Shown here: in pieces, positions 27,148 to 45,409 of the stretch | Position numbering within the stretch: the stretch's first letter is position 1 | Layout: every line of letters begins with the position of its first letter | Origin: Candidatus Campbellbacteria bacterium GW2011_OD1_34_28 | GTDB taxonomy: Bacteria; Patescibacteriota; Minisyncoccia; Phycocordibacterales; UBA12079 | Assembly (NCBI GenBank): GCA_001029775.1 | Contig: CP011215.1 | Location: forward strand, 274,685-338,684 | Length of the DNA stretch: 64,000 nt | Reading direction: 5' to 3' | Notes under the pieces: model-generated | Databases searched by the model: none | The model's input: only the letters and a program-made list of their open reading frames with translations | Told to the model about the DNA's origin: nothing | Program-made: the position numbers and the translations under genes

Positions 27148-27231
27148 GCTCAGGTGCGGAAATTGGTAGACCGGTACGCTTGAGGGGCGTATGTCTTTAC
27201 AGACGTGAGGGTTCGAGTCCCTCTCTGGGCA
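27148..27231 (+). tRNA. tRNA-Leu (anticodon GAG), type II
   Basis: Acceptor with two G-U pairs, anticodon loop TTGAGGG, long variable arm, T arm GGTTCGAGTCC. Confidence 0.7.
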
Positions 27232-27310
27232 CAAAGTCGTTGATATATTTTTTGTTTTAATATAGTATTCGTTTTAGGTTTGTATTATTAATTTTTTTAG
27301 GGAGAAAAAT

Positions 27311-32723: not shown

Positions 32724-34424
32724 ATGATTAAGAATGAGTTGGAAAAAGTAATAAAGTCCGCTGTGTCCGAGTTGGGTATAGAAGCAGGGAAGGTTCATCT
32801 GGAACACCCTGTTGATTTAAAAATGGGTGATTATTCTACTAATGTGGCGATGGTTTATGCAAAACAGATAGGACAGAATCCTCGCGAACTTGCTGAAAAA
32901 ATTGTCGAAAGAATTAAGGCAATTCCAACAGCAACCGGGTTGCTGTTAGGCGTGGAGGTGGCGGGTGCTGGGTTTATAAATTTTTATTTAAAGTCAGAGT
33001 TTTTTGCTGACTCTGTAAAAGATGTTTTAGAAAAAAAAGATGATTACGGAAAAAATGAAAAGTTGAAAGGTAAAAAAATGATGGTGGAATACACCGACCC
33101 AAATCCTTTCAAAGAAATTCATATCGGACATCTAATGACCAATGCTATTGGAGAATCTATTGCAAGAATTATTTCTGCTCAGGGAGCGCAGGTTATTCGT
33201 GCAAACTACCAAGGTGATGTAGGAATGCATGTTGCCAAAGCGGTTTATGGACTTTTGAAATTGGGATACGACGGTTCAAAGATAGGCGAGCTGGCGAGTG
33301 CTTATGCATATGGTGCAAAAGATTTTGATGAAAATAGAAAAGAAATAACCGAAATAAATAAAAAAATTTATGAAAGAAGTGATGAAAAAATAAATGCTCT
33401 TTATGATATTGGTAGAGAAGCAAGTTTGCGTTATTTTGAAGTAATTTATAAAAAATTGGGAATGTTTCCTACAAAACAAGGTAAACATTTTGATGAATAT
33501 TTTTTTGAGAGTGAAACAGCACCGATTGGAAAAGAATTTGTTAAAGGAAATATAGGAAAAGTTTTTAACGAGAGCGAAGGCGCTGTAATCTTTGAGGGAG
33601 AAAAATATGGATTGCATACCCGTGTCTTTTTGAATTCCGAAGGTATTCCTACTTATGAAGCAAAGGATTTGGGACTTATAAAAACAAAGTTTGAAAAGTA
33701 TCCCGACTTGGATTTGTCTATTTCAATAACAGGAAATGAAGTAAACGAATATTTTAAGGTGATGTTAAAATCTGCTGAATTGATAGAACCACAATTGGCA
33801 GAAAAAACAAAACACATTTCACATGGAATGTTGCGATTGCCAGAAGGAAAAATGTCGTCACGAACAGGAGATGTAATAAGTGCCGTTGGATTGATGGCGG
33901 AAATAGAAAAAGAAGTCCAAAAGAGAATGGAAAAGAAAGAAAGTCTTGATTATGATAAGACTGTCGAACAAGTAACATTGTCTGCGATCAAATATTCTAT
34001 TTTGAAATCTGCCAACGGAAAAGATGTTGTCTTTGATATGAATAAATCCGTATCTATTGAAGGAAACTCTGGACCTTATTTGCAATACACAAATGCGAGA
34101 ATAAATTCTATTTTGGAAAAAGCAAAACAAGAAAATATAAAAAGTTGGGAGCAAGGCACCCAAATAGAAATATCCGATGTGGAGAAAATTCTTTATCGTT
34201 TTCCAGAGGTGGTTGAGAGAGTGGGTGAAGAATACGAACCTCATTATATTGCGGTATATTTGTCAGAATTAGCGCAAGCATTTAACTCTTATTATTCCGC
34301 AAACAAAATTGTAGATAGCGGAGATATTAATTCTCCTTATCGTACAGCTCTTGCTCAAGCAGTAGGGCAGGTGATTAAAAATGGGCTGTATCTTTTGGGA
34401 ATTGAGTCTCCTGAGAAGATGTAA
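32724..34424 (+). CDS. argS: Arginine--tRNA ligase
   Basis: HIGH (HIGHLMT), C-terminal anticodon-binding DALA-like domain. Confidence 0.9.
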   Translation: MIKNELEKVIKSAVSELGIEAGKVHLEHPVDLKMGDYSTNVAMVYAKQIGQNPRELAEKIVERIKAIPTATGLLLGVEVAGAGFINFYLKSEFFADSVKDVLEKKDDYGKNEKLKGKKMMVEYTDPNPFKEIHIGHLMTNAIGESIARIISAQGAQVIRANYQGDVGMHVAKAVYGLLKLGYDGSKIGELASAYAYGAKDFDENRKEITEINKKIYERSDEKINALYDIGREASLRYFEVIYKKLGMFPTKQGKHFDEYFFESETAPIGKEFVKGNIGKVFNESEGAVIFEGEKYGLHTRVFLNSEGIPTYEAKDLGLIKTKFEKYPDLDLSISITGNEVNEYFKVMLKSAELIEPQLAEKTKHISHGMLRLPEGKMSSRTGDVISAVGLMAEIEKEVQKRMEKKESLDYDKTVEQVTLSAIKYSILKSANGKDVVFDMNKSVSIEGNSGPYLQYTNARINSILEKAKQENIKSWEQGTQIEISDVEKILYRFPEVVERVGEEYEPHYIAVYLSELAQAFNSYYSANKIVDSGDINSPYRTALAQAVGQVIKNGLYLLGIESPEKM

Positions 34425-34463: not shown

Positions 34464-34925
34464 ATGGAAAACAAAAATTATTATTGGATTATTTTAGTTT
34501 TATTAGTGTTAGTGGTTGGAGGTTTTTGGTATTATCAAACATACCAAGTCAATCCAAAATCAGAAGATGAATCTTCTGAAGTAAAGATAATCGATTCTTC
34601 TGACACCATTTCTAATAATGTAAGCACTTCTACCGTTCAGATTTATGGTGAGGAATATGAAAAATTTTTAATTGGTACATGGCAGAATTCTGCGAATATT
34701 TTGGATATGACAGTAATAAAACAAGACGGAACAATTGAAAATATTTATGATGGTGATTTGGTTAGTTCTGGAACTTGGAAGACAGAAGGATATCATTTAA
34801 AAATTACCACAAACGGACAAGATAAAACCTACACAGTTTTATTTGCGGGTAATGAGAGGTTGCAACTGGCTCCTTCTCCAGCAGGAACAGGGAATAATTT
34901 GAATTTTACAAGAGTTATTAAATAA
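34464..34925 (+). CDS. Membrane-anchored hypothetical protein
   Basis: N-terminal TM helix, beta-rich remainder. Confidence 0.4.
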   Translation: MENKNYYWIILVLLVLVVGGFWYYQTYQVNPKSEDESSEVKIIDSSDTISNNVSTSTVQIYGEEYEKFLIGTWQNSANILDMTVIKQDGTIENIYDGDLVSSGTWKTEGYHLKITTNGQDKTYTVLFAGNERLQLAPSPAGTGNNLNFTRVIK

Positions 34926-35185
34926 ACTTAAAAGATAAAAGATGACCACAGCAAGACCGTGGTCATTTTTTGTTTGACTTTATGTTGTGTTTGAGTATTA
35001 TGTACACATAAATGTTCTTGATTAAATCTTGAAAAGAGATGCATTTGTAAGTATTTTCCGGCGTGGAAGACATTGGTTTTCCGGAAAACCAGAGTCAAAA
35101 CTTTCAGATGTTTAGCGAACGAACCGGTGTGAGGACACTGTCGCTGGTCTTTTCTCTCCTCATCTCTTTTCATCCTTGTTGTGTT

Positions 35186-35264
35186 GGGGCGTAGCTCAAT
35201 CTCTCTCTTGGCAGAGCGCCTGTTTGAGAACAGGAAGATGGTCGGTTCGAATCCGTCCGCTCCA
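35186..35264 (+). tRNA. tRNA-like element / probable degenerate tRNA (Ala-type GGGGC acceptor with G3:U70)
   Basis: GGGGCGTAGCTCAA[tctctctctt]GGCAGAGCGCCTGTTTGAGAACAGG...GGTTCGAATCC...CGCTCCA. The D-loop is ~16 nt, the T-stem has a mismatch and the anticodon loop reads GAG. Followed by a terminator at 35275-35300. Confidence 0.3.
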
Positions 35265-35299
35265 ATCAAAAATAAAAGTCCGCCTGTGGCGGACTTTTT

Positions 35300-36022
35300 C
35301 TATTGGTGGAGATTTTCTCTCCGCTCAGAAATATAGGCTCTCTTGATAGCGGTGTATTGGTCCACCGATCCATCCATAATACCTTTGTATGTTGGAGAAA
35401 AATCATGCCATAGATCGATAGAATCGGCTGATTGTAAAGAAAATCTTTCTACACTGCCGGTGTATTTTACTGGTGAAATAAAATATTCACCAAAATTACC
35501 AAAAGAACTGCGGAAAGTTCGGGGTCCAAATAATGGCCAGATGATGTAAACACCTTCGCCGACGCCCCAATAGGCAAGGCCTTGGTCGATGTCTTCTTCA
35601 TCTGGCGGGTTAAATTTTACTGGTCGAAAAATTCCGCCGATTCCAAAAAAAGAATTGTTAATTGTTTCATTCATTGTGAGACCGACAATTTCTCCTTTTC
35701 CTTGCATTGCTGCTCCAAAAAGACGAGTTGGAAATGAAAGGTTGTAAAAGAAATTTCCGATACAGTCTCGGACAGGCTCCGGAATTTTTTCGTAAAGATT
35801 TTTGTTGATTGGTTCCAGTACCCACATATAGAATTTGTCGTTGACGTAAAATGTGATTCTGTTCAGTGGTTCAAAAGGGTCCCATACTTCACACACTGTT
35901 TGCTCTTCGTCTGAAAGAGGGTCTTCATAAAAAACGCACCCTTCCGGTTTTTGAGCACAACCGATTTGAGTTGTAACCAATAATAAAAAAATTGACGAAA
36001 GAACCCATTCTTTTTTCTGCAT
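35300..36022 (-). CDS. MlaA/VacJ-family lipoprotein
   Basis: Signal peptide plus lipobox (QIGC), then DPFEPLNR...NFFYNLSFP...MQGKG...TMNETINNSFFGIGG, a close match to the MlaA domain; GC higher than the genome background. Confidence 0.65.
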   Translation of the reverse strand: MQKKEWVLSSIFLLLVTTQIGCAQKPEGCVFYEDPLSDEEQTVCEVWDPFEPLNRITFYVNDKFYMWVLEPINKNLYEKIPEPVRDCIGNFFYNLSFPTRLFGAAMQGKGEIVGLTMNETINNSFFGIGGIFRPVKFNPPDEEDIDQGLAYWGVGEGVYIIWPLFGPRTFRSSFGNFGEYFISPVKYTGSVERFSLQSADSIDLWHDFSPTYKGIMDGSVDQYTAIKRAYISERRENLHQ

Positions 36023-36125
36023 TTGCCCCTCCTTTTTTGTCGATGATAGACGGTTCTAGTATTTAGCGTATAGTAGTTTTGAATAATCTCAAAGGGGATA
36101 AATTTTGTTTAGATATTAAAAACAT

Positions 36126-36154
36126 TTGACATTTTTCTGTTTAGAATCTATCCT
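36126..36154 (+). promoter_or_regulatory. Sigma70-like promoter (TTGACA, 17 nt spacer, TATCCT) driving the small-ORF/rSAM operon
   Basis: ttgacatttttctgtttagaatctatcct about 55 bp upstream of the AGGAGG RBS. Confidence 0.45.
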
Positions 36155-36208
36155 TTTAAAAGGACTAGGTACTATTACGAAAATCTTTTAACCAGAGGAG
36201 GCGGTATC

Positions 36209-36310
36209 ATGAAGAGAAATGTGGCAAAAAAGAGCGGGAAGAAAATACCCCGTTCGAAAAAAAAGATTCGTGTGCGTATCGGCAAGGGTAGTTGCAGTAT
36301 TTGCGACTGA
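36209..36310 (+). CDS. 33-aa basic Cys-containing peptide (candidate rSAM substrate/precursor): MKRNVAKKSGKKIPRSKKKIRVRIGKGSCSICD
   Basis: Perfect AGGAGG RBS 7 nt upstream of the ATG; not in the ORF track (<60 aa); followed by a hairpin/terminator and the rSAM-SPASM gene. Confidence 0.4.
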   Translation: MKRNVAKKSGKKIPRSKKKIRVRIGKGSCSICD

Positions 36311-36320
36311 TCTCGGCAAA

Positions 36321-36347
36321 CAAGGAGGGCTCGCCCTCCTTGTTTTC
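36321..36347 (+). terminator. Inter-cistronic hairpin/attenuator (caaggaggg-ctcg-ccctccttg + TTTTC)
   Basis: 9-bp perfect stem then a T-run, between the small ORF and the rSAM gene. Confidence 0.5.
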
Positions 36348-36369
36348 AAATCAAGACAAGGGAGAAAAA

Positions 36370-37455
36370 ATGGATTGCAATACTGAAACACCAACATTAG
36401 ATGTTGAAATAGGTGATACTGTTTACGCAATTGAATTTGGACAGATTCAGATTGAAATTACCGGACTTTGTAATATGCATTGTCAGCATTGCAGGGCGTC
36501 GAATCAGCCTGTCGAGGAAATGAGTATTGATAATATCGTAAAAATTATCAAATTTGCTCGGCAGTTCAGCCCCAATTACAAAGAAATTGTCGTTTCAGGC
36601 GGTGAGCCAACATTGCATAGAGATTTTTCTGGCGTGTTGAAAGCTGTGAGAAAAAATGGCGGTGATTTTGTCACCCTTACTACAAACGGTTCCATTTTTA
36701 ATAAAACACATCTCGACTTGATCGAAAGCCTGGATTTTAAGCGCTTTGTTTTATCGGTCAGTATCGACAGTCTTGACGCCAAAGAGCACGACACTTTTCG
36801 TGGGTATCAGGGAGCGTTTGATAAAGCCGTTCGATCTTTGTCGTTAATTGCAGAAAGTAAACTTCCCAACATCGTTGCCTCGATGCGTTCTACCATCAAG
36901 GCTACACAAATCGACGATATGGAAGCTATGGCAGAATATGCTCAAAAAATAGGTTGTCAAAGAGTTAGTTTCTCTGCTATTCATCCGGCTGGTCGTGCCA
37001 TCTTGCGTCCTGATTTGTGGATGACCTCTGAGCAGAAACTCGCTTTTCTCAAAAACATCTACGCATTGAAGGAAAAATTTCCCGAGATGAACATCACGAC
37101 CAACGACCCTCTTAAATGTTTGTTGCGTGGCAAGAGTGATGTCGGAGGAGAAGACGAACTAGTCTTTGATGGTTGCGGAGCTGCGGCGATTACTTTCAAT
37201 GTAAATGCTGACGGGGTAATGACCCCTTGTGCGCTTCTGGATGTTCCGATGATGAACACGAAAAATCTTTCCATTGAGGAAATCACCGAACAGTATCGAA
37301 AAAACTGGATTGTGAGGAATATGCTCACTATGAATTTCGACGGTAAGTGTGGAACTTGCCCGACGAAATATCAGTGCGGTGGTTGTCGTGCCAGAGCATT
37401 GATTCAAAACGGCGACATGTTTGGCGAAGATCCTCATTGTTGGATTACACCGTAA
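36370..37455 (+). CDS. Radical SAM enzyme with C-terminal SPASM domain (peptide-modifying maturase-like)
   Basis: CNMHCQHC rSAM cluster, GGEPTL, C-terminal CGAAA...C...CGTCPTKYQCGGCRARA SPASM cysteines. Confidence 0.75.
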   Translation: MDCNTETPTLDVEIGDTVYAIEFGQIQIEITGLCNMHCQHCRASNQPVEEMSIDNIVKIIKFARQFSPNYKEIVVSGGEPTLHRDFSGVLKAVRKNGGDFVTLTTNGSIFNKTHLDLIESLDFKRFVLSVSIDSLDAKEHDTFRGYQGAFDKAVRSLSLIAESKLPNIVASMRSTIKATQIDDMEAMAEYAQKIGCQRVSFSAIHPAGRAILRPDLWMTSEQKLAFLKNIYALKEKFPEMNITTNDPLKCLLRGKSDVGGEDELVFDGCGAAAITFNVNADGVMTPCALLDVPMMNTKNLSIEEITEQYRKNWIVRNMLTMNFDGKCGTCPTKYQCGGCRARALIQNGDMFGEDPHCWITP

Positions 37456-37524: not shown

Positions 37525-40500
37525 ATGACTAACGAAAATAATATTAATAATAAATCTGAGACAGCCAAGAATGAAGAAAACATTATAAAGTTTTGGCAGG
37601 AGAACAAAATTTTTGAAAAATCCGTAGAGAAAGAAGCTCCGAACGGCGAGTTTACTTTTTATGACGGACCTCCTTTTGCTACCGGTCTTCCGCACTATGG
37701 GCATCTTTTGCCTGGGACGATGAAAGATATTATTCCTCGTTATCAAACAATGAAAGGCAAAAGAGTTAATCGTCGTTGGGGTTGGGATTGTCACGGTCTA
37801 CCGATTGAGAATTTGATTGAAGATGAATTGGGACTTAAAACAAAAAAAGATATTTTTGAACATGGAGTAGAAAAATTTAATCAGTCTGCAAAAGACAGCG
37901 TTCTTCGTTATGATGCTGATTGGAAAAAGATTATTCCAAGAACGGGAAGGTGGGTGGATATGTCGCACAGTTACAAGACTATGGACACGACCTATTCAGA
38001 AACTATTTGGTGGATTTTTAAAACTGTCTACGAAAAGAAATTAATTTATGAAGGACATAAAGCAATGCATTTGTGCCCTCGATGTGAAACAACACTTTCT
38101 AATTTTGAGGTTAATCAAGGGTACAAAGATATAAAAGATATTTCGGTTACTGCAAAATTTGAAGTTGAACATACCAATAGTACGAATGATACTAATGATA
38201 CGAATAATACAAATACTAAGACTTATATTTTAGCTTGGACTACTACACCATGGACTTTGCCTGGTAATGTTGCTTTGGCTGTCGGAAAAGATATCGATTA
38301 TGTAGAAGTAGAAGTTTTGCCAGAATCAGATATTAGAGAAGTTGGAAACACGGATTATAAAGTCCTTCCAATAGAATATTATATTTTAGCTAAAGAAAAA
38401 TTAGAAAGTGTTTTTGGGGGTCGTCGTTATAGCGTTAAGGAAGAATTTAAAGGATCAGAGCTTGTTGGAAAATCTTATAAACCGGTTTTTGATTATTATC
38501 AAAACGAAGATTTAGAAAATAAAGAAAACGGTTGGAAAATTTACGGGGCGGATTTTGTGACGACCGAGGACGGAACGGGAATTGTTCACATCGCTCCGGC
38601 TTTTGGATCGGACGATATGGAATTGGGAAAGAAAGAAAATTTGCCGTTTATTCAGCATGTCACAGTGGACGGAAAATTTAAACCTGAAGTAAAAGACTTT
38701 GTCGGTTTGACAGTAAAGCCAAAAGACACAAAAGAAGATGCCAGTGCGCACCTGAGAACAGATATTGAGATTGTCAGATGGCTACAAGAACACGACAAGT
38801 TTTTCTCGAAGGAAAATTTGGTCCACTCCTATCCTCATTGTTGGAGATGCAATACACCGCTTTTGAATTATGCGACATCATCGTGGTTTTTGAAGGTGAC
38901 CGATTTGAAGGATAAATTGTTGGAGGTAAATAGCAAAATTCACTGGGTGCCGGAACACATCAGAGACGGAAGATTTGGAAAATGGTTGGAAGGGGCGAGA
39001 GATTGGGCGATTTCCAGAACGCGTTTTTGGGGTGCACCTTTACCAGTTTGGAAATGTAAAGAATGTGACAATGTTCATGTACTTGGTTCTATTGAAGACC
39101 TTAAACAAAAAACAAGAGGCACTAACAAATATTTTGTAATGCGACACGGCGAAGCGGAAAACAATACTTTGAATGTTTCCAGCACGAAAGCAGAAAATCC
39201 CCATCACTTAACTGACAAAGGAAAAGAACAGGTATTGGGTGCGATTGCAAAATTGAAAGAAAAGAAAATTGATTTTATTATCTCGTCTCCTTTTGTTAGG
39301 ACAAAAGAGACGACTGAAATGATTGCGAAAGAAATCGGTATCAACGAAATAATTTTTGATGACAGATTGATAGAGGCACAGGTAGGTGATTTTGAAGGAA
39401 AAGATATTTCCGAATACAGAAATTATACGAAATCTTTGGAAGAAAAATTTTTGCAAACTCCGCCTAACGGAGAAAGTTTGACCGAGTTAAAAAACAGAGT
39501 AGGGGATTTTATTTACGAGATTGATAAAAAATATTCCGACAAAAATATTTTGATTGTTACTCATGAATATCCAGCTTGGTTGTTGATTGCCGTGACAAAA
39601 GGACTAAATGGCACAGAGGCGGTTGAATTGAAACACAAAGAAAATCTTTTTGAAAATGCCGACATAAAAGAATTGGATTTTGCACCAATTTCTCATAACA
39701 AAAATTATGAGTCTGATTTGCATATGCCATATATAGACGAGATAAAATTTGCTTGTGAATGTGGAGGAGAGATGGAAAGAATCAAAGAAGTTTTTGATTG
39801 TTGGTTTGAATCTGGCGCGATGCCTTATGCTTCGAATCATTATCCTTTTGAAAATCTGGACAAATTTAATCCTGAAAAAGGTATTGGTTTTCCGGCTGAT
39901 TTTATTGCTGAAGGAACCGATCAGACCAGAGGGTGGTTTTATACATCATTGGTTTTGTCGACCGCATTGTTTGAAAAAGCGTCTTTCCAAAATGTAATTG
40001 TAAACGGAATGATAATGGCAGAGGACGGCAAAAAAATGTCAAAGAGTCTCAGAAATTATCCCGATATTTCGTATATGTTGGATAAATACGGAGCGGATGC
40101 TCTAAGATACTATATTATTTCTTCTCCAGCTGTTCGTGCCGAGGATTTAAATTTTTCTGAAAAGGGAGTAGATGAGATTTTGAAAAAAATTATTTTGAAA
40201 ACAAAAAATGTTTTGTCTTTTTATGAATTGTATAAAGACGAAATCTCTGCAGAGGTTAAACCTCTGCAAAGCGACAATGTTCTTGATAGATGGATTATTG
40301 CTCGTTTGAATCAATTAATTGTAGAAGTTACGACAGGATTGGACAATTACGAATTAGATAGAGCATCCAGACCGATTGTTGATTTTGTCGAAGATCTTTC
40401 TACTTGGTATATTCGTCGTTCAAGAGATAGGTTTAAGGGGGAAGACGAAAAAGACAAGAATTTTGCAATAGAAACGACAGGTTTTGTTTTGAAAGAATTA

Positions 40501-41115
40501 ACAAAAGTAATGGCTCCGTTTATGCCGTTTGTCGCCGAAGAGGTTTATCAAAGAGTAAAAGGTAATGAAGGAAAAGAAAGTGTCCATTTAGAAAACTGGT
40601 CAGAAGTTGAAAAAGTGGACGAAAAGATTTTGGAAGAAATGAAAAGGGTGAGAGATATTGTGTCGCTGGCTTTGGAGGCGAGAGCAAAGACGGGGATAAA
40701 GGTGAGACAACCGCTTCAAAAGCTGACAGCTTACAGCCAACAGCCTACAGCAATGGACGAAGAATTGGTTGGTGTCATTAAAGATGAGGTGAATGTGAAG
40801 GATGTGGTATTTGAAAAAGGAGATGAAGAGAAGGTTGAATTAGATATAGAAATCACCCCGGAACTAAAAGCCGAAGGGCAATATAGAGAACTGCTTCGAA
40901 ATATTCAGAGGATGAGAAAAGATGCAAACCTTGTGCCGAACGATTTGGTAGAGTTGGAAGTAGAAACAGATGAAGTAGGAAAAGAATTGATAGAAAAATT
41001 TGCCGAAGATTTGAAACGTACGGCTGGATTAGAAAAAATAGAATTTGAGGGTGTCGATGACGGAGAAAATATAAAAATCGACAATCTAACTTTTAAAATA
41101 AAATTAGAAAAATAA
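37525..41115 (+). CDS. ileS: Isoleucine--tRNA ligase (type 2) carrying an inserted histidine-phosphatase (PGAM-like) domain
   Basis: HYGHLLP (HIGH), KMSKSLRN, WxCxxC zinc region, editing domain. Residues encoded ~39100-39700 read VMRHGEAENN...LTDKGKEQ...FIISSPFVRTKET...NGESLTEL...ILIVTHEYPAW, a PGAM branch-1 signature. Confidence 0.85.
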   Translation: MTNENNINNKSETAKNEENIIKFWQENKIFEKSVEKEAPNGEFTFYDGPPFATGLPHYGHLLPGTMKDIIPRYQTMKGKRVNRRWGWDCHGLPIENLIEDELGLKTKKDIFEHGVEKFNQSAKDSVLRYDADWKKIIPRTGRWVDMSHSYKTMDTTYSETIWWIFKTVYEKKLIYEGHKAMHLCPRCETTLSNFEVNQGYKDIKDISVTAKFEVEHTNSTNDTNDTNNTNTKTYILAWTTTPWTLPGNVALAVGKDIDYVEVEVLPESDIREVGNTDYKVLPIEYYILAKEKLESVFGGRRYSVKEEFKGSELVGKSYKPVFDYYQNEDLENKENGWKIYGADFVTTEDGTGIVHIAPAFGSDDMELGKKENLPFIQHVTVDGKFKPEVKDFVGLTVKPKDTKEDASAHLRTDIEIVRWLQEHDKFFSKENLVHSYPHCWRCNTPLLNYATSSWFLKVTDLKDKLLEVNSKIHWVPEHIRDGRFGKWLEGARDWAISRTRFWGAPLPVWKCKECDNVHVLGSIEDLKQKTRGTNKYFVMRHGEAENNTLNVSSTKAENPHHLTDKGKEQVLGAIAKLKEKKIDFIISSPFVRTKETTEMIAKEIGINEIIFDDRLIEAQVGDFEGKDISEYRNYTKSLEEKFLQTPPNGESLTELKNRVGDFIYEIDKKYSDKNILIVTHEYPAWLLIAVTKGLNGTEAVELKHKENLFENADIKELDFAPISHNKNYESDLHMPYIDEIKFACECGGEMERIKEVFDCWFESGAMPYASNHYPFENLDKFNPEKGIGFPADFIAEGTDQTRGWFYTSLVLSTALFEKASFQNVIVNGMIMAEDGKKMSKSLRNYPDISYMLDKYGADALRYYIISSPAVRAEDLNFSEKGVDEILKKIILKTKNVLSFYELYKDEISAEVKPLQSDNVLDRWIIARLNQLIVEVTTGLDNYELDRASRPIVDFVEDLSTWYIRRSRDRFKGEDEKDKNFAIETTGFVLKELTKVMAPFMPFVAEEVYQRVKGNEGKESVHLENWSEVEKVDEKILEEMKRVRDIVSLALEARAKTGIKVRQPLQKLTAYSQQPTAMDEELVGVIKDEVNVKDVVFEKGDEEKVELDIEITPELKAEGQYRELLRNIQRMRKDANLVPNDLVELEVETDEVGKELIEKFAEDLKRTAGLEKIEFEGVDDGENIKIDNLTFKIKLEK

Positions 41116-41191: not shown

Positions 41192-41791
41192 ATGAGCCAT
41201 AACATCTACAACACAGAGGGGATTGTTTTAGGAAGTTTTGCTATTGGTGAGGCGGACAAATTTTTTCGGATTTTCACGAGAGAATTGGGATTGATAGAAG
41301 CGACAGCACAGGGCATTAGAAAAACAGAATCAAAAAATCGTTACGGTTTGCAAGATTTTTCTCTTCTTCACATTTCTTTGGTACGGGGGAGAGAAGTATG
41401 GAGAATTACAAGTGTCTCTACAATAAAAAATCTATTTTTTGATTTGGAAGAAAAAAAAGATGCCCGAGAATCTTTGATAAAAATAATTTTATTTATACAG
41501 AAATTGGTTCACGGAGAAGAAAAGAATGAAAAATTATTTGACCTTGTTTTGAATGCTTTTGAATTTTTGAAACGAAAAGAAATTAGCTCAACCTCTTTGA
41601 AAAGTTTTGAGACTATTTATTTTTTAAAAATATTGGATAACTTGGGATATTTTGATAAAAATATTCAGGAGGAAAAATTTAAAGATTTTTTGAGTTGCGA
41701 TGTAACTGATGATTTAATCAATAAGATGTCTTTTGTTGAAAAAGATGCACAAAGAGAAATAGACGAGGCTTTGAGAGAAACACATTTGTAA
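41192..41791 (+). CDS. recO: DNA repair protein RecO-like
   Basis: N-terminal OB fold (TEGIVLGSFAIGEADKFFRIFTRELGLIEATAQGIRK). Confidence 0.65.
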   Translation: MSHNIYNTEGIVLGSFAIGEADKFFRIFTRELGLIEATAQGIRKTESKNRYGLQDFSLLHISLVRGREVWRITSVSTIKNLFFDLEEKKDARESLIKIILFIQKLVHGEEKNEKLFDLVLNAFEFLKRKEISSTSLKSFETIYFLKILDNLGYFDKNIQEEKFKDFLSCDVTDDLINKMSFVEKDAQREIDEALRETHL

Positions 41792-42058
41792 ACGAGAAAA
41801 TAAGGGTTAAGGGGTAAGATATAAGGAGTGAGTAGAAAAAATAAGAAATAAAAAAAGCGGTACATGGTACCGCTGAAAGAACGAGGCGTTCGCTTCCTGT
41901 TCCTGGTATGGATATACTGCTTGAACGGTAGGGTGAAGTTGATCGGAAGCGAACGCTAATTTAATAATATATGAAAGTAGATTCTTGTCAATAAAAATTA
42001 GTTTCACTTGTATTACTAGCTAATTTTAAATTATTTCAAATTTGGTATAATTATCTTT

Positions 42059-43984
42059 ATGTTTGAAGATAAAAATTATAGTAAGTTGGAGGGGTTAAAA
42101 AAAGGACTCTATTCTGCAAAAAATGTCTTTGTGAAAAAAGATGTTTCAGGACTGCACTCAAAAAATTATGATGTAAAAACCGATTGGGAAAAGGAAGCTC
42201 CTGTCATCGATGATAATTTCAACAACAATCAAATGCCAATAAAAAATAAATCAAAAAAAGAAAAAAACTTTGTTGAAAAGTTTTTGATATTTTCCTCTGT
42301 TCTGTTTTTTGTTGCGGCAATTCTTGTTTTGTTTACAATTTTTGGAGGAATAAATAATATATCAACATCCAATGTAGATATCTCTGTTATCGGACCTGCC
42401 ACTATAGAAAGTGGTGGAGAATTATCTTTGCAAATTAGTATAGAAAATAAAAACTCTACTGATCTAGAATTGGTGGATTTGGTTGTTAAATATCCGAAAG
42501 GGACTCGCTCTGTTTCTGGAGAAAGTATGGAAAAATTCACTGAACCACTGGGTACGATTCGTTCGGGAAAAGAAGTAAAAAAAGAAGTAAAAGCAGTTTT
42601 GTATGGTGAAGAAAATAGTGAACAACAAATTGTGGTGAGTCTAGAATACAGAATTGCAGACTCAAATGCCATTTTTTTTAAAGAAAGAAGTTTTGATTTA
42701 AAAATTAGCTCTTCACCTGTTAATTTGGTGATCAGTCCGATAGAAGAATCTATCTCAGGACAAGAGGTAAACTTTTCCGTAAGCGTGATTTCAAACACGA
42801 AGGGAGATGTAAATGATCTATTACTGACAGCCGAGTATCCTTTTGGGTTTGAGTTTATTAGTTCCGATCCAAAACCAGATTTTAGTGATAATGCTTGGAA
42901 AATAGATGGTGAAAAACAGGTTATAAATATCAAGGGTATTATAACAGGACAAGAAGGTGACGAGAGAGTATTTAAATTTACTTGTGGAACTCCCGATGAT
43001 AACAATGAGAAAAAAATCAGTGCAATTTTTGCTATTGCTGAAAAATCTTTGGAAGTGAAAAGACCATTCTTGGGTATTGATTTGGCAATAAATGGGGATA
43101 GCCGTGCTGAATATATTTTGGCTCCGAACAAACCTATCAGAGTGGATGTTACTTGGAAAAATAATTCTCCTGAAAAAATTCTCGATGCCGAAATCTCTGT
43201 TAAATTGAAAGGAACAATCATAAACAAAACTAGTATCAATGTTGAAAAAGGATTTTATCGTTCAACCGACAATACTATTGTTTGGGATAAAAGAACAAAT
43301 GCTGATTTAGCAGAAGTAGTTTTGGGTGACAGTGGAAGATTTAGTTTCTATTTTGAGCCAGTAGGAATTAGCACGAGAGGGTCTTTTGTTAATCCAGAAA
43401 TTTCAATGGAGGTAAGTGCAAAAGGAAACAGAGTTTTTGAGAATGCTACTCCCGAAGAAGTGATATCTACAATGACTAGAACAATAAAAATATCTTCTGA
43501 CCTAGCAGTTACTCCTAGGGCAACATATTATTCAGGTCCTTTTACCAATTCGGGTTCATTGCCTCCTCAGGTAGAAAAAGAAACGAGCTATACAATCACA
43601 TGGACAGTCACAAACACAATGAATGATATTTCGGGAGTGAGGGTGATATCATCTTTGCCTCCGTATGTGAGATGGTTAGGAGTTGTTTCTCCATCATCAG
43701 AAAAAATTTCTTACAATCCTGTTGGTGGAGAAATATCTTGGAATGTTGGTGATGTTGATTCTGGGACAGGAATAAATATTCCTTCAAAAGAAATTTCTTT
43801 TCAAGTAATGTTACTTCCGAGTGTTAGTCAAATAGGACAAACTCCAGATTTAACTACCGAAGTTGTTGTAACCGGAAAGGATATGTTTACAAACGCTTCT
43901 TTGAGAGAAGTGTTTAGAAGTGTAAACACAAGACTGAGCACAGATCCAGGTTTTAACGCATCAAAGGCCAATGTGGTAGAATAG
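42059..43984 (+). CDS. Membrane-anchored large extracellular protein (hypothetical, beta-rich)
   Basis: N-terminal TM helix after a ~80-aa cytoplasmic region, Ig-like beta-rich repeats. Confidence 0.45.
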   Translation: MFEDKNYSKLEGLKKGLYSAKNVFVKKDVSGLHSKNYDVKTDWEKEAPVIDDNFNNNQMPIKNKSKKEKNFVEKFLIFSSVLFFVAAILVLFTIFGGINNISTSNVDISVIGPATIESGGELSLQISIENKNSTDLELVDLVVKYPKGTRSVSGESMEKFTEPLGTIRSGKEVKKEVKAVLYGEENSEQQIVVSLEYRIADSNAIFFKERSFDLKISSSPVNLVISPIEESISGQEVNFSVSVISNTKGDVNDLLLTAEYPFGFEFISSDPKPDFSDNAWKIDGEKQVINIKGIITGQEGDERVFKFTCGTPDDNNEKKISAIFAIAEKSLEVKRPFLGIDLAINGDSRAEYILAPNKPIRVDVTWKNNSPEKILDAEISVKLKGTIINKTSINVEKGFYRSTDNTIVWDKRTNADLAEVVLGDSGRFSFYFEPVGISTRGSFVNPEISMEVSAKGNRVFENATPEEVISTMTRTIKISSDLAVTPRATYYSGPFTNSGSLPPQVEKETSYTITWTVTNTMNDISGVRVISSLPPYVRWLGVVSPSSEKISYNPVGGEISWNVGDVDSGTGINIPSKEISFQVMLLPSVSQIGQTPDLTTEVVVTGKDMFTNASLREVFRSVNTRLSTDPGFNASKANVVE

Positions 43985-44032
43985 ATTGATTTTTCAAAAA
44001 GTTTAGTAAAATGATCGCTATAAAATAAAAAA

Positions 44033-45409
44033 ATGGAAAAAGAAACAGAGCAAAATAAAATGGATAAAATAATTTCTCTCGCAAAGAGAAGAGGGTTTGT
44101 GTATCAAGGATCAGAGATTTACGGCGGTTTGGGAGGAACTTATTCATACGGCCCATTAGGTGTTGAATTGAAAAACAATATTAAACAACTTTGGTGGAAA
44201 AAATTTGTTCAAGATCGAACCGATGTCGTTGGAATTGATGGCCCTATTTTGCTTCACCCAAAATTGTGGGAAGCCTCAGGACACAAAGCTGGATTTGGAG
44301 ACGCAATGGTTGATTGTAAAGAATGTAAAAAAAGATTTAGAGCAGATCACTTGGTGGAAGAAGCTATTGGTATTGATATGGAAGGGGAGAACGAAAAGAT
44401 GAACCAAGCTATTCAAGAAAATAAAATAAAATGTCCCGCTTGCGGAAAATTTAACTGGACCGATGTTCGCGATTTCAATATGATGTTCAAGACAGAAATG
44501 AATGGAGTAGAAGAATCTGTTTTTTTGAGACCAGAAACTGCGGGAGCAATTTTTATTGAATTTAAAAATATTATTGATTCAACAAGAAAGAAAATTCCTT
44601 TTGGTATTGCCCAAATCGGAAAGGCTTTTAGAAATGAAATAGTAGCAGGCAATTTTATTTTCAGACTTCGTGAATTTGAACAAATGGAAATAGAATATTT
44701 GATTCACCCAAATATGGATTGGGAGCCTTTGTTTGAAGAATGGATAAAATTGCAAGAAGATTTTGCTTTGGAATTGGGTGCTAAACGAGAAGACTTGAGA
44801 AGAAGAGAACACTCGAAAGAAAAGCTTTCTCATTATTCAAAAAAGACAGTGGATATAGAATACAATTTTCCGTTTGGAGGTTTTAAAGAGCTTTTTGGAT
44901 TGGCACACAGAGGTGATTTTGATTTAACTCAACACAGCAAATATTCAAACGAAAAGTTGGAATATTTTGATCAAGATAGCGGAGAGAGATTCACTCCTCA
45001 TATTATAGAGCCAACATTTGGTGTTGAGAGAAGTTTACTAATGACACTTATTTCTGCGTACAACGAAGAAGAAGTAGAGGGGGAAATGCGAGTAGTTTTG
45101 AAATTACCTAAAAAAATCGCTCCTGTTAAAGTAGCTATTTTGCCTCTTTCTAAAAAAGAAGAACTGACAAAACCAACAATGGAATTGTTTAATAGTTTGA
45201 AAAATTCTTTTGTTTGTCAGTATGACGAAACGCAATCAATTGGAAAGAGATACAGAAGACAAGACGAGATTGGTACACCATTTTGCATTACATTTGATTT
45301 TGATTCTTTGAATGATTTGTCAGTGACTGTTCGTGATAGAGATACGATGAAACAAGACAGAGTAAAGATTGAAGAAGTTGAAAGTTATCTAAAAGAAAAA
45401 TTGAAGTAA
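44033..45409 (+). CDS. glyQS: Glycine--tRNA ligase (dimeric class II)
   Basis: YGGLGGTYSYGPLGVELK..., class II motifs, C-terminal anticodon-binding domain. Confidence 0.85.
   Translation: MEKETEQNKMDKIISLAKRRGFVYQGSEIYGGLGGTYSYGPLGVELKNNIKQLWWKKFVQDRTDVVGIDGPILLHPKLWEASGHKAGFGDAMVDCKECKKRFRADHLVEEAIGIDMEGENEKMNQAIQENKIKCPACGKFNWTDVRDFNMMFKTEMNGVEESVFLRPETAGAIFIEFKNIIDSTRKKIPFGIAQIGKAFRNEIVAGNFIFRLREFEQMEIEYLIHPNMDWEPLFEEWIKLQEDFALELGAKREDLRRREHSKEKLSHYSKKTVDIEYNFPFGGFKELFGLAHRGDFDLTQHSKYSNEKLEYFDQDSGERFTPHIIEPTFGVERSLLMTLISAYNEEEVEGEMRVVLKLPKKIAPVKVAILPLSKKEELTKPTMELFNSLKNSFVCQYDETQSIGKRYRRQDEIGTPFCITFDFDSLNDLSVTVRDRDTMKQDRVKIEEVESYLKEKLK

What the first reader, a model, noticed from the sequence alone, without database searches (positions are those of the whole stretch)
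39100..39700. Histidine-phosphatase (PGAM-like) domain inserted into isoleucyl-tRNA synthetase
IleS is 1196 aa. Between the zinc-binding WKCKECDNVHVLGS segment and the conserved DLHMPYID segment lies a ~200-aa insertion. It carries the complete branch-1 histidine phosphatase signature (VMRHGEAENN; LTDKGKEQ; FIISSPFVRTKETTEMIA; NGESLTEL; ILIVTHEYPAW) in the same frame, with no intein splice motifs. A phosphatase or phosphomutase domain embedded in an aaRS catalytic core is highly unusual. It could act on a nucleotide or phosphorylated intermediate, or be a lineage-specific regulatory insertion.
Basis: seen in the sequence. Interest (0 to 1): 0.7.

Follow-up and report, generated by a model that had tools for sequence, protein, structure and literature searches.

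The report
Phosphatase domain built into isoleucyl-tRNA synthetase
The isoleucyl-tRNA synthetase gene of this Patescibacteria (CPR) genome really does carry a complete, apparently active histidine-phosphatase domain in a zinc-binding surface loop, and this uncharacterised arrangement is shared by at least 80 related species and descends from a small phosphatase gene that sits between the arginyl- and isoleucyl-tRNA synthetase genes in other relatives.

Summary
ORF 37525..41115 (+) encodes a 1196-aa type-2 IleRS. Residues 530-729 (nt 39112-39711) are a ~200-aa insert. It matches Pfam His_Phos_1 at E=1.3e-31.

The insert replaces a 5-10-residue loop of the CP3 subdomain, between the CxxC and CxC zinc ligands. 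It is not a chimera or an intein.

- All 120 best full-length relatives carry it, as do at least 80 species-representative genomes of Paceibacteria/Parcubacteria. Where site and size were examined they are the same.
- The catalytic residues R540, H541, N547, R592, E617 and H680 are invariant or nearly so.
- The predicted fold (pLDDT 93) is closest to small phosphomonoesterases (PspA, PhoE, CobC), not to mutases.

New findings:
- Free-standing orthologues (~190 aa) lie in a tight argS-hp-ileS-recO arrangement, with median gaps of 3-4 nt.
- Rare proteins fuse the same domain to ArgRS or TsaC.
- Other IleRS lineages carry it at other sites, in 2-4 copies.
- The free form is strongly basic. The embedded form is not.

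My reading is a bifunctional IleRS-phosphatase. Physical coupling to tRNA-charging enzymes appears to be selected. The substrate is unknown; a tRNA-linked or nucleotide phosphate is my leading guess. I found no description in the searchable literature.

The parts
37525..41115 (+). ileS: type-2 (eukaryote/archaea-like) isoleucyl-tRNA synthetase, 1196 aa, carrying the inserted phosphatase domain
   Evidence: ORF. TIGR00392 scores 885.6 bits (cut-off 621.4). Pfam domain matches. AF2 model has pLDDT 88.8 and pTM 0.82. Best Foldseek match is P. megaterium IleRS2 8c8v, TM(target) 0.81.
37525..39111 (+). IleRS residues 1-529: Rossmann N-half (HYGH at 57-60, nt 37693-37704), CP core, CP1 editing domain (WTTTPWTLP at 238-246), CP2 and the first half of CP3
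   Evidence: H57, G59 and H60 are invariant in 119 sequences.
39055..39066 (+). CxxC (C511, C514): first pair of the CP3 zinc ligands, just upstream of the insert
   Evidence: Both Cys are invariant in 119 of 119 sequences. By the offset of the 1ile alignment they correspond to T. thermophilus Cys461/464. The CP3 of TtIleRS carries a zinc motif (PMC7191050).
39112..39711 (+). Inserted histidine-phosphatase module, residues 530-729. The Pfam core is 537-710 (nt 39133-39654). The conserved linker 711-729, NADIKELDFAPISHNKNYE, is nt 39655-39711
   Evidence: His_Phos_1 E=1.3e-31. Boundaries come from the PDB alignments. Insert length is 198-217 aa in 118 of 119 relatives. Insert-only AF2 model has pLDDT 92.8 and pTM 0.90. 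Foldseek gives prob 1.0 and TM 0.75-0.80 to PspA, PhoE, CobC and GpgP.
39142..39150 (+). RHG: R540 and the predicted nucleophile H541
   Evidence: R, H and G are invariant in 119 of 119 sequences. They are also invariant across free-standing, ArgRS-fused and TsaC-fused forms.
39298..39300 (+). R592, the second phosphate-pocket arginine (SSPFVRTKET)
   Evidence: Invariant in 119 of 119 sequences.
39373..39375 (+). E617, the predicted general acid/base
   Evidence: Invariant in 119 of 119 embedded sequences. It is E or D in free-standing forms.
39562..39564 (+). H680, the second active-site histidine (IVTHEYP)
   Evidence: Present in 118 of 119 sequences.
39712..41112 (+). IleRS residues 730-1196: second half of CP3 (DLHMPYID at 731-738; CxC at C744/C746, nt 39754-39762), Rossmann C-half (WFESG at 760-764; KMSKS at 837-841, nt 40033-40047), anticodon-binding domain and the type-2 C-terminal domain
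32724..34424 (+). argS (arginyl-tRNA synthetase), the upstream partner of the conserved argS-(hp)-ileS-recO arrangement. In this window it is separated from ileS by about 3.1 kb
   Evidence: Pfam Arg_tRNA_synt_N + tRNA-synt_1d + DALR_1. Synteny statistics.
41192..41791 (+). recO-like gene, the downstream member of the conserved arrangement
   Evidence: RecO_N E=2.5e-16. recO lies downstream of ileS in 61 of 78 embedded loci.

Best explanation
**Shown.** This is a genuine, ancient domain insertion.
- A compact PhoE/PspA/CobC-like branch-1 histidine phosphatase (HP) sits in the loop between the two cysteine pairs of the zinc-binding CP3 subdomain of a type-2 IleRS.
- The synthetase motifs, the editing-domain motifs and the zinc ligands are intact.
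- The complete HP catalytic set is conserved: R540, H541, N547, R592, E617 and H680.

**Inferred from comparative data.** The module descends from a separate ~190-aa gene. In related Patescibacteria that gene lies between argS and ileS, packed tightly against both. In this lineage the separate gene is absent from the ±10 kb examined, and the domain is inside ileS instead.

**Inferred mechanism.**
- The protein is bifunctional. IleRS charges tRNA-Ile as usual.
- The tethered HP works as an autonomous phosphomonoesterase by the family's standard chemistry. H541 attacks a terminal phosphoryl group held by R540, R592 and H680. E617 protonates the leaving group and then activates water to release phosphate.

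**Why I think the two activities are coupled.** The same HP subfamily is also fused to ArgRS and to TsaC. It is inserted at several other IleRS sites, in 2-4 copies. It is strongly basic only when free-standing. I therefore infer that its task belongs to the tRNA-charging process and involves a polyanionic partner.

**Most likely substrate.** My leading guess is removal of a terminal phosphate from a tRNA-linked or nucleotide substrate. One example is a 3'/2'-phosphorylated tRNA end, which cannot be aminoacylated. Another is a phosphorylated by-product of adenylate formation.

**Graded confidence.**

| Claim | Confidence |
|---|---|
| Anatomy and origin | about 0.9 |
| Catalytically active phosphatase | about 0.8 |
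| Functional coupling to aminoacylation | about 0.5 |
| tRNA-end substrate specifically | about 0.2-0.25 |
For: **Anatomy.**

**Not an artefact.**
- All 120 best full-length relatives (55-87% identity) have PF00300.
- 80 of the 80 kept species-representative genomes cover the whole junction query.
- Insert length is 198-217 aa in 118 of 119 sequences.

**Active site kept.** R540, H541, G542, R592 and E617 are invariant in 119 of 119 sequences. N547 and H680 are present in 118 of 119. The insert is about as conserved as the editing domain (0.62 against 0.65).

**Fold.** pLDDT is 92.8. The nearest solved structures are the riboflavin-pathway HFP 9mmh, PspA 4ij5, GpgP, PhoE and CobC.

**Origin from a neighbouring gene.**
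- Of 64 free-standing HP loci, 49 have an insert-less ileS directly downstream, 5 run out of contig, and 56 have argS upstream.
- Median gaps are 4 nt (argS to hp) and 3 nt (hp to ileS).
- Among embedded loci, 42 of 74 have argS directly upstream and 61 of 78 have recO downstream. None has a second HP within 10 kb.

**Recurrent coupling.**
- There are three ArgRS::HP fusion clusters. One of them is followed 5 nt later by ileS.
- One protein is a TsaC/Sua5::HP fusion in an unrelated context.
- HP is found at other IleRS sites: after the CxC pair, between WFESG and FPADFIAEG, in the anticodon-binding domain, and near CP2. Copy number is 2-4 per protein. One such protein comes from a cluster with a member on a 1.06-Mb contig.

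**Charge.** Free-standing HP has a median net charge of +11.5 per 100 aa (pI 10.0). ORFs of at least 150 aa in the same loci have +2.8. Embedded HP has a median net charge of -2 over the domain (about -1 per 100 aa; pI 6.3), against a background of 0.0. The extra positive charge peaks next to the catalytic motifs.
Against: - No substrate was identified and no activity can be measured here.
- The nearest characterised relatives all act on small metabolites, not on RNA.
- Gene order is generally well conserved in these small genomes. Adjacency alone therefore does not prove a shared function, and the ArgRS fusions are simple read-throughs of neighbouring genes.
- The TsaC fusion is a single protein on one 3.7-kb contig.
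- The basicity of the free form lies only at about the 90th percentile of an already basic local proteome.
- Several insertion sites may simply be permissive surface loops. I could not obtain model coordinates, so the geometry relative to the tRNA acceptor end and the KMSKS loop is unknown.
- The NJ trees of the HP domains and of the IleRS cores are poorly resolved. They do not show a single clean insertion event.
Confidence: 0.55

Rival explanations
1. Hitch-hiking housekeeping phosphatase. On this view HP is an ordinary small-molecule phosphatase, for example of the phosphoserine, sugar-phosphate or cofactor-precursor type. Its gene happened to lie next to ileS and argS in a gene-dense, rarely rearranged genome. 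Fusion or insertion only guarantees co-expression, and there is no mechanistic link to aminoacylation.
For: - The closest sequence and fold relatives are metabolite phosphatases.
- The ArgRS fusions are read-throughs of adjacent genes.
- Patescibacterial IleRS also accepts other unrelated domains. GNAT and an IS200-like Y1 transposase domain occur in P0134 and P0339, and NCBIfam has a curated 'ileS_w_GNAT' model. IleRS may therefore simply be a permissive scaffold.
Against: - The same subfamily is inserted at several different IleRS sites, in up to four copies, in lineages with different genomic contexts.
- It is fused to TsaC outside the argS-ileS context.
- The strong basicity of the free form, and its loss on embedding, is unexpected for a metabolite phosphatase.
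- An in-frame insertion into the middle of an essential gene needs more than the loss of a stop codon.
Confidence: 0.28
2. By-product clearance. On this view HP hydrolyses pyrophosphate, or a nucleotide product, released by adenylate-forming enzymes. IleRS, ArgRS and TsaC all convert ATP to an acyl-AMP plus PPi. Removing the product locally would pull these reactions forward in organisms with minimal metabolism.
For: - The three fusion or neighbour partners share exactly this chemistry.
- His-phosphatase chemistry only needs a terminal phosphoryl group. This rests on general knowledge of the superfamily.
- A basic active-site rim would suit a small polyanion.
Against: - No branch-1 relative found here is a pyrophosphatase.
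- I could not test whether these genomes lack a conventional ppa gene.
- A diffusible product does not obviously require tethering.
- The charge difference between the free and the embedded form is not explained.
Confidence: 0.12
3. Non-catalytic role. On this view the domain acts as a structural, tRNA-binding or ligand-sensing (regulatory) module, or as a protein phosphatase acting on the synthetase itself.
For: - CP insertions of class Ia synthetases often serve tRNA handling. This rests on general knowledge.
- The full-length model has high confidence: pTM is 0.82 and pLDDT across the insert is 92-96.
Against: Near-absolute conservation of the whole catalytic set over sequences down to about 35-40% identity argues for retained catalysis. 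No kinase partner is seen in the conserved neighbourhood.
Confidence: 0.04
4. Artefact or mobile element. On this view the insert is an assembly chimera, an intein, or a recently inserted selfish element.
For: Nothing beyond the a-priori oddity. Some database relatives appear as short fragments.
Against: - The same insert is found at the same site in many independent assemblies from many studies.
- There is no Hint or intein Pfam hit.
- There is no compositional break and there are no flanking repeats.
- The two short fragments on long contigs that I examined are frameshifted gene calls (overlapping ORFs).
Confidence: 0.01

Closest known systems
Type-2 (eukaryote/archaea-like) bacterial IleRS, e.g. 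Priestia megaterium IleRS2 (PDB 8c8v) and Thermus thermophilus IleRS (1ile)
   Same: - It has the same overall fold and domain order. Foldseek TM(target) is 0.81-0.89. Sequence scores are 699 and 685 bits, against 264 bits for type-1 S. aureus IleRS.
- HIGH, KMSKS and the editing motifs are present.
- CP3 carries the CxxC...CxC zinc motif, as in T. thermophilus.
- The C-terminal DUF5915-type domain is present.
   Different: About 200 extra residues form a complete second enzyme domain inside the CP3 zinc loop. Known structures have 5-40 residues there.
Small branch-1 histidine phosphatases: Hydrogenobacter PspA phosphoserine phosphatase (4ij5), Geobacillus PhoE (1h2e/1ebb), CobC alpha-ribazole phosphatase (6e4b/6nru), mycobacterial GpgP (4pz9), riboflavin-pathway HFP (9mmh)
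   Same: - The compact fold of about 190-210 aa is shared (TM 0.7-0.8, prob 1.0).
- The catalytic residues are the same: the RHG histidine, two arginines, the acid and the second histidine.
- It resembles phosphatases rather than mutases.
   Different: - Identity is only 20-26%, and it falls below every curated equivalog cut-off.
- It is embedded in, or operon-coupled to, aminoacyl-tRNA synthetases.
- The free-standing members are very basic (pI about 10).
Mycobacterium Rv2228c-type bifunctional RNase H / acid phosphatase (NCBIfam NF005567)
   Same: It is a precedent for a CobC/PhoE-like histidine phosphatase fused to an enzyme that acts on nucleic acid. The insert matches the phosphatase half at 84.8 bits.
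   Different: That protein is an end-to-end fusion to RNase H, not an internal insertion, and it is not a synthetase. The score is far below the family cut-off of 326 bits.
NCBIfam NF040702 'isoleucine--tRNA ligase, N-acetyltransferase domain-containing' and other domain-bearing IleRS
   Same: It shows that IleRS can carry an extra enzyme domain. Some Patescibacteria IleRS carry GNAT together with HP (P0134 and P0339).
   Different: The extra domain is a different one (GNAT), at a different site. The window protein scores 314 bits against a cut-off of 1999.

Membership tests
Isoleucyl-tRNA synthetase (class Ia), type 2 | Curated equivalog model TIGR00392 at or above its cut-off | tested here: met
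   885.6 bits against a cut-off of 621.4, in two stretches split by the insert.
Isoleucyl-tRNA synthetase (class Ia), type 2 | HIGH and KMSKS signature motifs of the Rossmann fold | tested here: met
   HYGH at 57-60 and KMSKS at 837-841. H57, G59, H60, K837 and K840 are invariant in 119 relatives.
Isoleucyl-tRNA synthetase (class Ia), type 2 | CP1 editing domain with the Thr-rich motif and the conserved GTG.VH.AP..G..D segment | tested here: met
   AWTTTPWTLPGN at 237-248 and GTGIVHIAPAFGSDD at 350-364. These positions are invariant or nearly so in 101 sequences.
Isoleucyl-tRNA synthetase (class Ia), type 2 | Overall fold and type-2 C-terminal domain; closer to IleRS2/eukaryotic IleRS than to type 1 | tested here: met
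   Foldseek TM(target) 0.81 to 8c8v and 0.80-0.88 to yeast 8wnd. DUF5915 is present. Sequence score is 699 bits to IleRS2 against 264 bits to S. aureus type 1.
Isoleucyl-tRNA synthetase (class Ia), type 2 | Ile-specific aminoacylation and editing activity | not testable with these tools
   Needs biochemistry.
Histidine phosphatase superfamily, branch 1 (PF00300) | Pfam model above its gathering score | tested here: met
   110.2 bits against 21.7, E=1.3e-31, residues 537-710.
Histidine phosphatase superfamily, branch 1 (PF00300) | Catalytic core: the RHG histidine, two arginines, a second histidine and an acidic proton donor | tested here: met
   R540, H541, R592, E617 and H680 are present. They are invariant in 118-119 of 119 relatives.
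Histidine phosphatase superfamily, branch 1 (PF00300) | alpha/beta fold of the superfamily | tested here: met
   Model pLDDT is 92.8. Foldseek gives prob 1.0 and TM 0.7-0.8 to many solved members.
Histidine phosphatase superfamily, branch 1 (PF00300) | Phosphoryl transfer through a phospho-histidine intermediate | not testable with these tools
   Needs an enzyme assay or intermediate trapping.
Cofactor-dependent phosphoglycerate mutase (dPGM) | Curated dPGM models above their cut-offs | tested here: not met
   NF038349 dPGM_arch scores 87.5 against 225. GpmB NF002901 scores 54.4 against 261.
Cofactor-dependent phosphoglycerate mutase (dPGM) | Conserved H-G-N-S-L-R segment after the second histidine (recalled from E. 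coli and yeast dPGM, not from a tool) | tested here: not met
   The window has T-H-E-Y-P-A-W. The residue after H680 varies (E in 62, N in 42, D in 6, G in 6 of 119 sequences).
PspA-type phosphoserine phosphatase / CobC alpha-ribazole phosphatase | Curated equivalog models above their cut-offs | tested here: not met
   PspA NF045917 scores 65.8 against 350. CobC TIGR03162 scores 74.1 against 162.9. These are the nearest relatives, but membership is not shown.
Intein | Hint-domain blocks and splice-junction residues (Cys/Ser at the N-junction; His-Asn followed by Cys/Ser/Thr at the C-junction) | tested here: not met
   No Hint or intein family appears in the Pfam scan. The insert begins TRGTN and ends ...SHNKNYE|SD, and the His-Asn there is followed by Lys.
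IleRS with GNAT domain (NF040702) | Model above its cut-off; GNAT domain present | tested here: not met
   314 bits against 1999. There is no acetyltransferase Pfam hit in the window protein.

The most novel reading that the evidence does not exclude
The histidine phosphatase may be a previously unrecognised tRNA-end 'healing' or quality-control activity attached to aminoacyl-tRNA synthetases. In that case it would remove a 3'/2'-phosphate or pyrophosphate from the acceptor end, or another terminal phosphate on tRNA. Such groups are left by damage, ribonuclease toxins or tRNA-phosphorylating toxins. Removing them would let the bound tRNA be charged at once. The basic free-standing form would find tRNA by itself. 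The embedded, neutral form would rely on IleRS to hold the tRNA.
Probability: 0.2. Interest if true: 0.9.

Novelty: new variant of a known kind. Interest (0 to 1): 0.68.

Why it matters
Aminoacyl-tRNA synthetases rarely carry a second, unrelated catalytic domain inside the catalytic body. Here an intact phosphatase has been attached to IleRS repeatedly: at several sites, in several copies, and also to ArgRS and TsaC. This occurs across a very large branch of uncultivated, reduced-genome bacteria.

That pattern points to an unrecognised phosphate-removing step linked to tRNA charging, or at least to a strongly selected co-localisation. The step could be tRNA-end repair, by-product removal or something else.

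The question is directly testable with recombinant protein. It matters for three reasons:
- how minimal cells keep translation running;
- how these proteins are annotated, since NCBI's pipeline currently names many of them only 'class I tRNA ligase family protein';
- how new domains get inserted into essential enzymes.

Tried and rejected
1. **Locus scan with the broad alignment.** I replaced it with narrower alignments.
2. **Short hits.** I suspected a naturally split IleRS because some short hits lay on long contigs. The two I examined are overlapping, frameshifted gene calls on long contigs. I rejected the split-gene idea.
3. **Counting insertion events.** NJ trees of the HP domains and of the IleRS cores have very short internal branches, and embedded forms interleave with free forms. 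I draw no conclusion on single versus multiple origin at site A. The identical site and the shared linker motif (F..P.N...-D[LF]HRP) favour one origin followed by spread.
4. **Signs of recent insertion.** Flanking-repeat and composition checks found nothing.
5. **AlphaFold database search.** The afdb50 fold library was unavailable.
6. **Literature.** Eight full-text searches found no paper describing a histidine phosphatase in or next to IleRS or ArgRS.
7. **Geometry.** I could not get model coordinates or PAE. The distance from the HP active site to the synthetic site, the KMSKS loop or the tRNA path was therefore not measured.
8. **Genome-wide gene content.** I could not test presence or absence of ppa, PGM, serB or RNA-repair genes, because only ±10 kb around each locus is available.
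Full report
**1. The observation**

The window has one uninterrupted ORF at 37525..41115 (+) encoding 1196 aa.

Pfam finds the following domains:

| Domain | Residues | Score |
|---|---|---|
| tRNA-synt_1, first stretch | 20-531 (profile 2-268 of 414) | family E=7.8e-130 |
| His_Phos_1 | 537-710 | E=1.3e-31, 110 bits (cut-off 21.7) |
| Anticodon_1 | 921-1066 | E=4.9e-36 |
| DUF5915 | 1103-1196 | E=1e-15 |

- NCBIfam's ileS equivalog scores 885.6 bits against a cut-off of 621.4.
- Alignments to solved IleRS chains define the insert. Query 529 aligns to human IleRS residue 491 and query 730 to residue 497. For P. megaterium IleRS2 the corresponding residues are 476 and about 485.
- Residues 530-729 (nt 39112-39711) therefore replace a loop of about 5-10 residues.
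- GC and GC3 of the insert equal those of the rest of the gene (0.345/0.369 and 0.325/0.314). There are no meaningful flanking repeats and no intein-type domain.

**2. Where it sits**

- The insert lies between CKEC (C511, C514) and CEC (C744, C746). By the offset of the alignment to T. thermophilus IleRS, C511/C514 correspond to Cys461/464 of that enzyme.
- The published description of IleRS architecture places this region in the CP3 subdomain (C. albicans residues 473-534). It notes that CP3 of T. thermophilus IleRS carries a zinc-binding motif (PMC7191050).
- The enzyme is a type-2 IleRS. It scores 699 bits to P. megaterium IleRS2 and 707 bits to human IleRS, against 264 bits to type-1 S. 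aureus IleRS.
- HYGH (57-60), KMSKS (837-841), the Thr-rich editing motif and all four zinc cysteines are conserved.
- An AlphaFold2 model built on 101 sequences has mean pLDDT 88.8 and pTM 0.82, with pLDDT 92-96 across the insert. Its synthetase body superposes on IleRS2 and on the yeast IleRS-tRNA complex with TM(target) 0.80-0.89.

**3. It is a conserved lineage feature, not an artefact**

- All 120 best full-length relatives (55-87% identity, 1150-1350 aa, from NCBI, JGI, ENA and Logan assemblies) carry PF00300.
- The closest named one is OGD69410.1 / UniRef100_A0A1F5EQ06 from a Candidatus Campbellbacteria genome, at 85% identity.
Among 600 pattern matches there were 561 candidates. The records are labelled Paceibacterota or Parcubacteria, including Lloyd-, Yonath-, Taylor- and Nomurabacteria.
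- Insert length is 198-217 aa in 118 of 119 aligned proteins.
- R540, H541, G542, R592 and E617 are invariant in 119 of 119. N547 and H680 are present in 118 of 119.
- Mean column conservation of the insert is 0.62, similar to the editing domain at 0.65.
- Many hits come from short contigs and are labelled partial by their sources. The two short ones on long contigs that I examined are frameshifted gene calls (overlapping ORFs).

**4. What kind of histidine phosphatase**

- The insert-only model (pLDDT 92.8, pTM 0.90) is a compact branch-1 fold.
- The best structural matches are all small-molecule phosphomonoesterases: a riboflavin-pathway phosphatase (9mmh), PspA phosphoserine phosphatase (4ij5/4ij6), mycobacterial GpgP, PhoE and CobC.
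- A profile search of PDB sequences gives the same list.
- Every curated equivalog model is far below its cut-off: dPGM_arch 87.5/225, PspA 65.8/350, CobC 74.1/162.9.
- The residue after the second histidine is variable. As I recall, dPGMs have a fixed H-G-N-S-L-R motif there.
- I therefore read the domain as a phosphatase of unknown specificity, not a mutase.

**5. Origin: a separate gene between argS and ileS**

- An exhaustive phmmer search with the insert found 1230 representatives at E<1e-10.
- Of the 143 listed hits not already retrieved, 92 are IleRS-embedded and about 50 are short proteins or fragments.
- One free-standing 195-aa protein lies 8 nt upstream of an insert-less 955-aa ileS. 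argS is further upstream and recO is downstream.
- A metagenome scan seeded with free-standing proteins returned 80 loci. Sixty-four hold a free-standing HP of about 188-200 aa.
  - 49 have an insert-less ileS (907-1011 aa) directly downstream on the same strand.
  - 5 run out of contig.
  - Most of the remaining 10 have ileS nearby.
  - 56 have argS upstream and 28 show recO.
- Median gaps are 4 nt (argS to hp) and 3 nt (hp to ileS). The hp-to-ileS gap is 30 nt or less in 48 of 55 cases.
- In loci with the embedded form, argS is directly upstream of ileS in 42 of 74 and recO is downstream in 61 of 78. No second HP of this subfamily occurs within 10 kb.
- The window fits this pattern. It has argS at 32724..34424, ileS with the insert, and recO at 41192..41791. 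Here about 3.1 kb of other material separates argS from ileS.
- All site-A proteins share the same insertion point and a linker motif (F..P.N...-D[LF]HRP) that the free proteins lack.

**6. The association recurs in other forms**

- **ArgRS::HP.** Three clusters carry a C-terminal fusion (P0383, P0385, P0386). One is followed 5 nt later by ileS, so it is a read-through of argS-hp.
- **TsaC/Sua5::HP.** A single protein (P0279) has this fusion, in an unrelated context.
- **Other IleRS lineages carry HP at different places.**
  - P0366 and P0308 have one copy between WFESG...HYPFEN and FPADFIAEG (window position about 787) and another after the first helix of the anticodon-binding domain (about 905-919).
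  - P0295 has copies right after the CxC pair and at both of those sites.
  - P0244 has four copies, one of them near CP2.
- P0366 is one of six near-identical proteins. One of them is on a 1.06-Mb contig. Its neighbourhood is different (purA, DAHP synthase, an SLH protein).
- The RHG, arginine and second-histidine motifs can be found in most of these extra copies.
- Some Patescibacteria IleRS also carry GNAT and, in one case, an IS200-like Y1 transposase domain.

**7. A charge difference**

| Protein set | Median net charge per 100 aa | Median pI |
|---|---|---|
| Free-standing HP | +11.5 | 10.0 |
| Other ORFs of ≥150 aa, same loci | +2.8 | 9.2 |
| IleRS, same loci | +1.3 | 8.7 |
| ArgRS, same loci | +3.6 | 9.4 |
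| Embedded HP domains | about -1 (net -2 over ~200 aa) | 6.3 |
| Other ORFs of ≥150 aa, embedded loci | 0.0 | 7.0 |

- The extra positive charge is spread over the domain. It peaks next to the catalytic motifs, at window residues 545, 613, 616, 624 and 681.
- This fits a free protein that must find a polyanionic partner or substrate, with RNA the obvious candidate. An embedded domain would not need that affinity because IleRS already holds the tRNA.
- The evidence is indirect. The free form sits at only about the 90th percentile of an already basic local proteome.

**8. Interpretation**

- **Shown.** This is a real, old, conserved insertion of a complete histidine-phosphatase fold into the CP3 zinc loop of an otherwise intact type-2 IleRS. 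There is a conserved argS-hp-ileS-recO arrangement in relatives, and the same HP subfamily is fused or inserted repeatedly.
- **Inferred.** The domain is catalytically active by the superfamily's standard mechanism (H541 nucleophile, R540/R592/H680 phosphate pocket, E617 acid/base). Physical coupling to tRNA-charging enzymes is selected.
- **Leading guess, about 0.2-0.25.** The substrate is a terminal phosphate on tRNA, or on a nucleotide, at the synthetase.
- **Rivals.** They are a hitch-hiking metabolic phosphatase (about 0.28), PPi or nucleotide by-product clearance (about 0.12), a non-catalytic, regulatory or protein-phosphatase role (about 0.04), and an artefact or mobile element (about 0.01).
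- **Limits.** I could not measure the geometry between the two active sites, because no coordinates were returned. I could not survey whole genomes for missing phosphatase or pyrophosphatase genes.

**9. Novelty**

- The architecture is visible in public protein databases.
- Eight full-text searches found no description of it.
- Precedents exist for histidine phosphatases fused to nucleic-acid enzymes (the RNase H/acid phosphatase model NF005567) and for IleRS with an extra domain (the ileS_w_GNAT model NF040702).
- I rate it a new variant of a known kind, with interest of about 0.68.

Noticed in passing
window 35185-35265 (+): An odd tRNA gene. Rfam scores it 40.1 bits, but ARAGORN could not type it. 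Read by eye, the acceptor stem GGGGCG/CGCTCC gives a G3:U70 pair, which is the alanine identity element. The D-loop is very long and contains TCTCTCTCTT. The anticodon loop TTGAGAA gives anticodon GAG (Leu codons), and the variable loop is short. A normal long-arm tRNA-Leu(GAG) lies at 27148-27232. It could be a mis-charging tRNA or a decayed one.
   Followed up: partly
window 34464-37455: About 3.1 kb lies between argS and ileS, where many relatives have the two genes adjacent. It holds a 153-aa ORF with no Pfam hit, the odd tRNA, an MlaA lipoprotein gene (35300..36022, minus strand, E=3.7e-45) and a radical-SAM gene (36292..37455). The right-hand ~2.3 kb of it (from the tRNA onward) has higher GC, up to 0.47 against about 0.35 nearby. 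MlaA is unexpected in a lineage thought to lack an outer membrane. This may be a small acquired islet.
   Followed up: no
window 38170-38220 (IleRS residues 216-232): A low-complexity run, HTNSTNDTNDTNNTNTK, lies in the CP1/editing region. It is predicted disordered (pLDDT below 50 at 218-228). A second low-confidence segment is at 269-279. The consensus of 101 relatives has only a short, variable stretch at the position of the first run.
   Followed up: no
P0339 and P0134 (relatives found): Some Patescibacteria IleRS carry further in-frame domains in addition to the phosphatase. P0134 has a GNAT acetyltransferase inside the editing region. P0339 has an IS200-like Y1 transposase domain at residues 340-461 and a C-terminal GNAT. 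IleRS seems unusually prone to domain accretion in this group.
   Followed up: partly
L166 6001-10260 (P0366); also P0308, P0295 and P0244: IleRS proteins from other lineages carry two to four histidine-phosphatase domains at sites different from the one in the window. The taxon is unknown. The L166 neighbourhood has purA, DAHP synthase and an SLH-domain protein. A near-identical protein lies on a 1.06-Mb contig.
   Followed up: partly
L167 3745-7243 and L168 3337-6857: In these two contigs (61 kb and 733 kb) the ileS-with-phosphatase gene is called as 3-4 separate, in one case overlapping, ORFs. These are most likely frameshift errors. They create spurious 'histidine phosphatase family protein' and 'class I tRNA ligase, partial' entries in the databases.
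   Followed up: yes
window 41192-45409: The genes downstream of ileS keep the same order as in distant relatives (L001, L167, L168). The order is recO, then a large DUF11/CLIPPER-like protein (42059..43984), then a class II synthetase with an HGTP anticodon domain (44033..45409). This suggests a long conserved block rich in translation genes.
   Followed up: no
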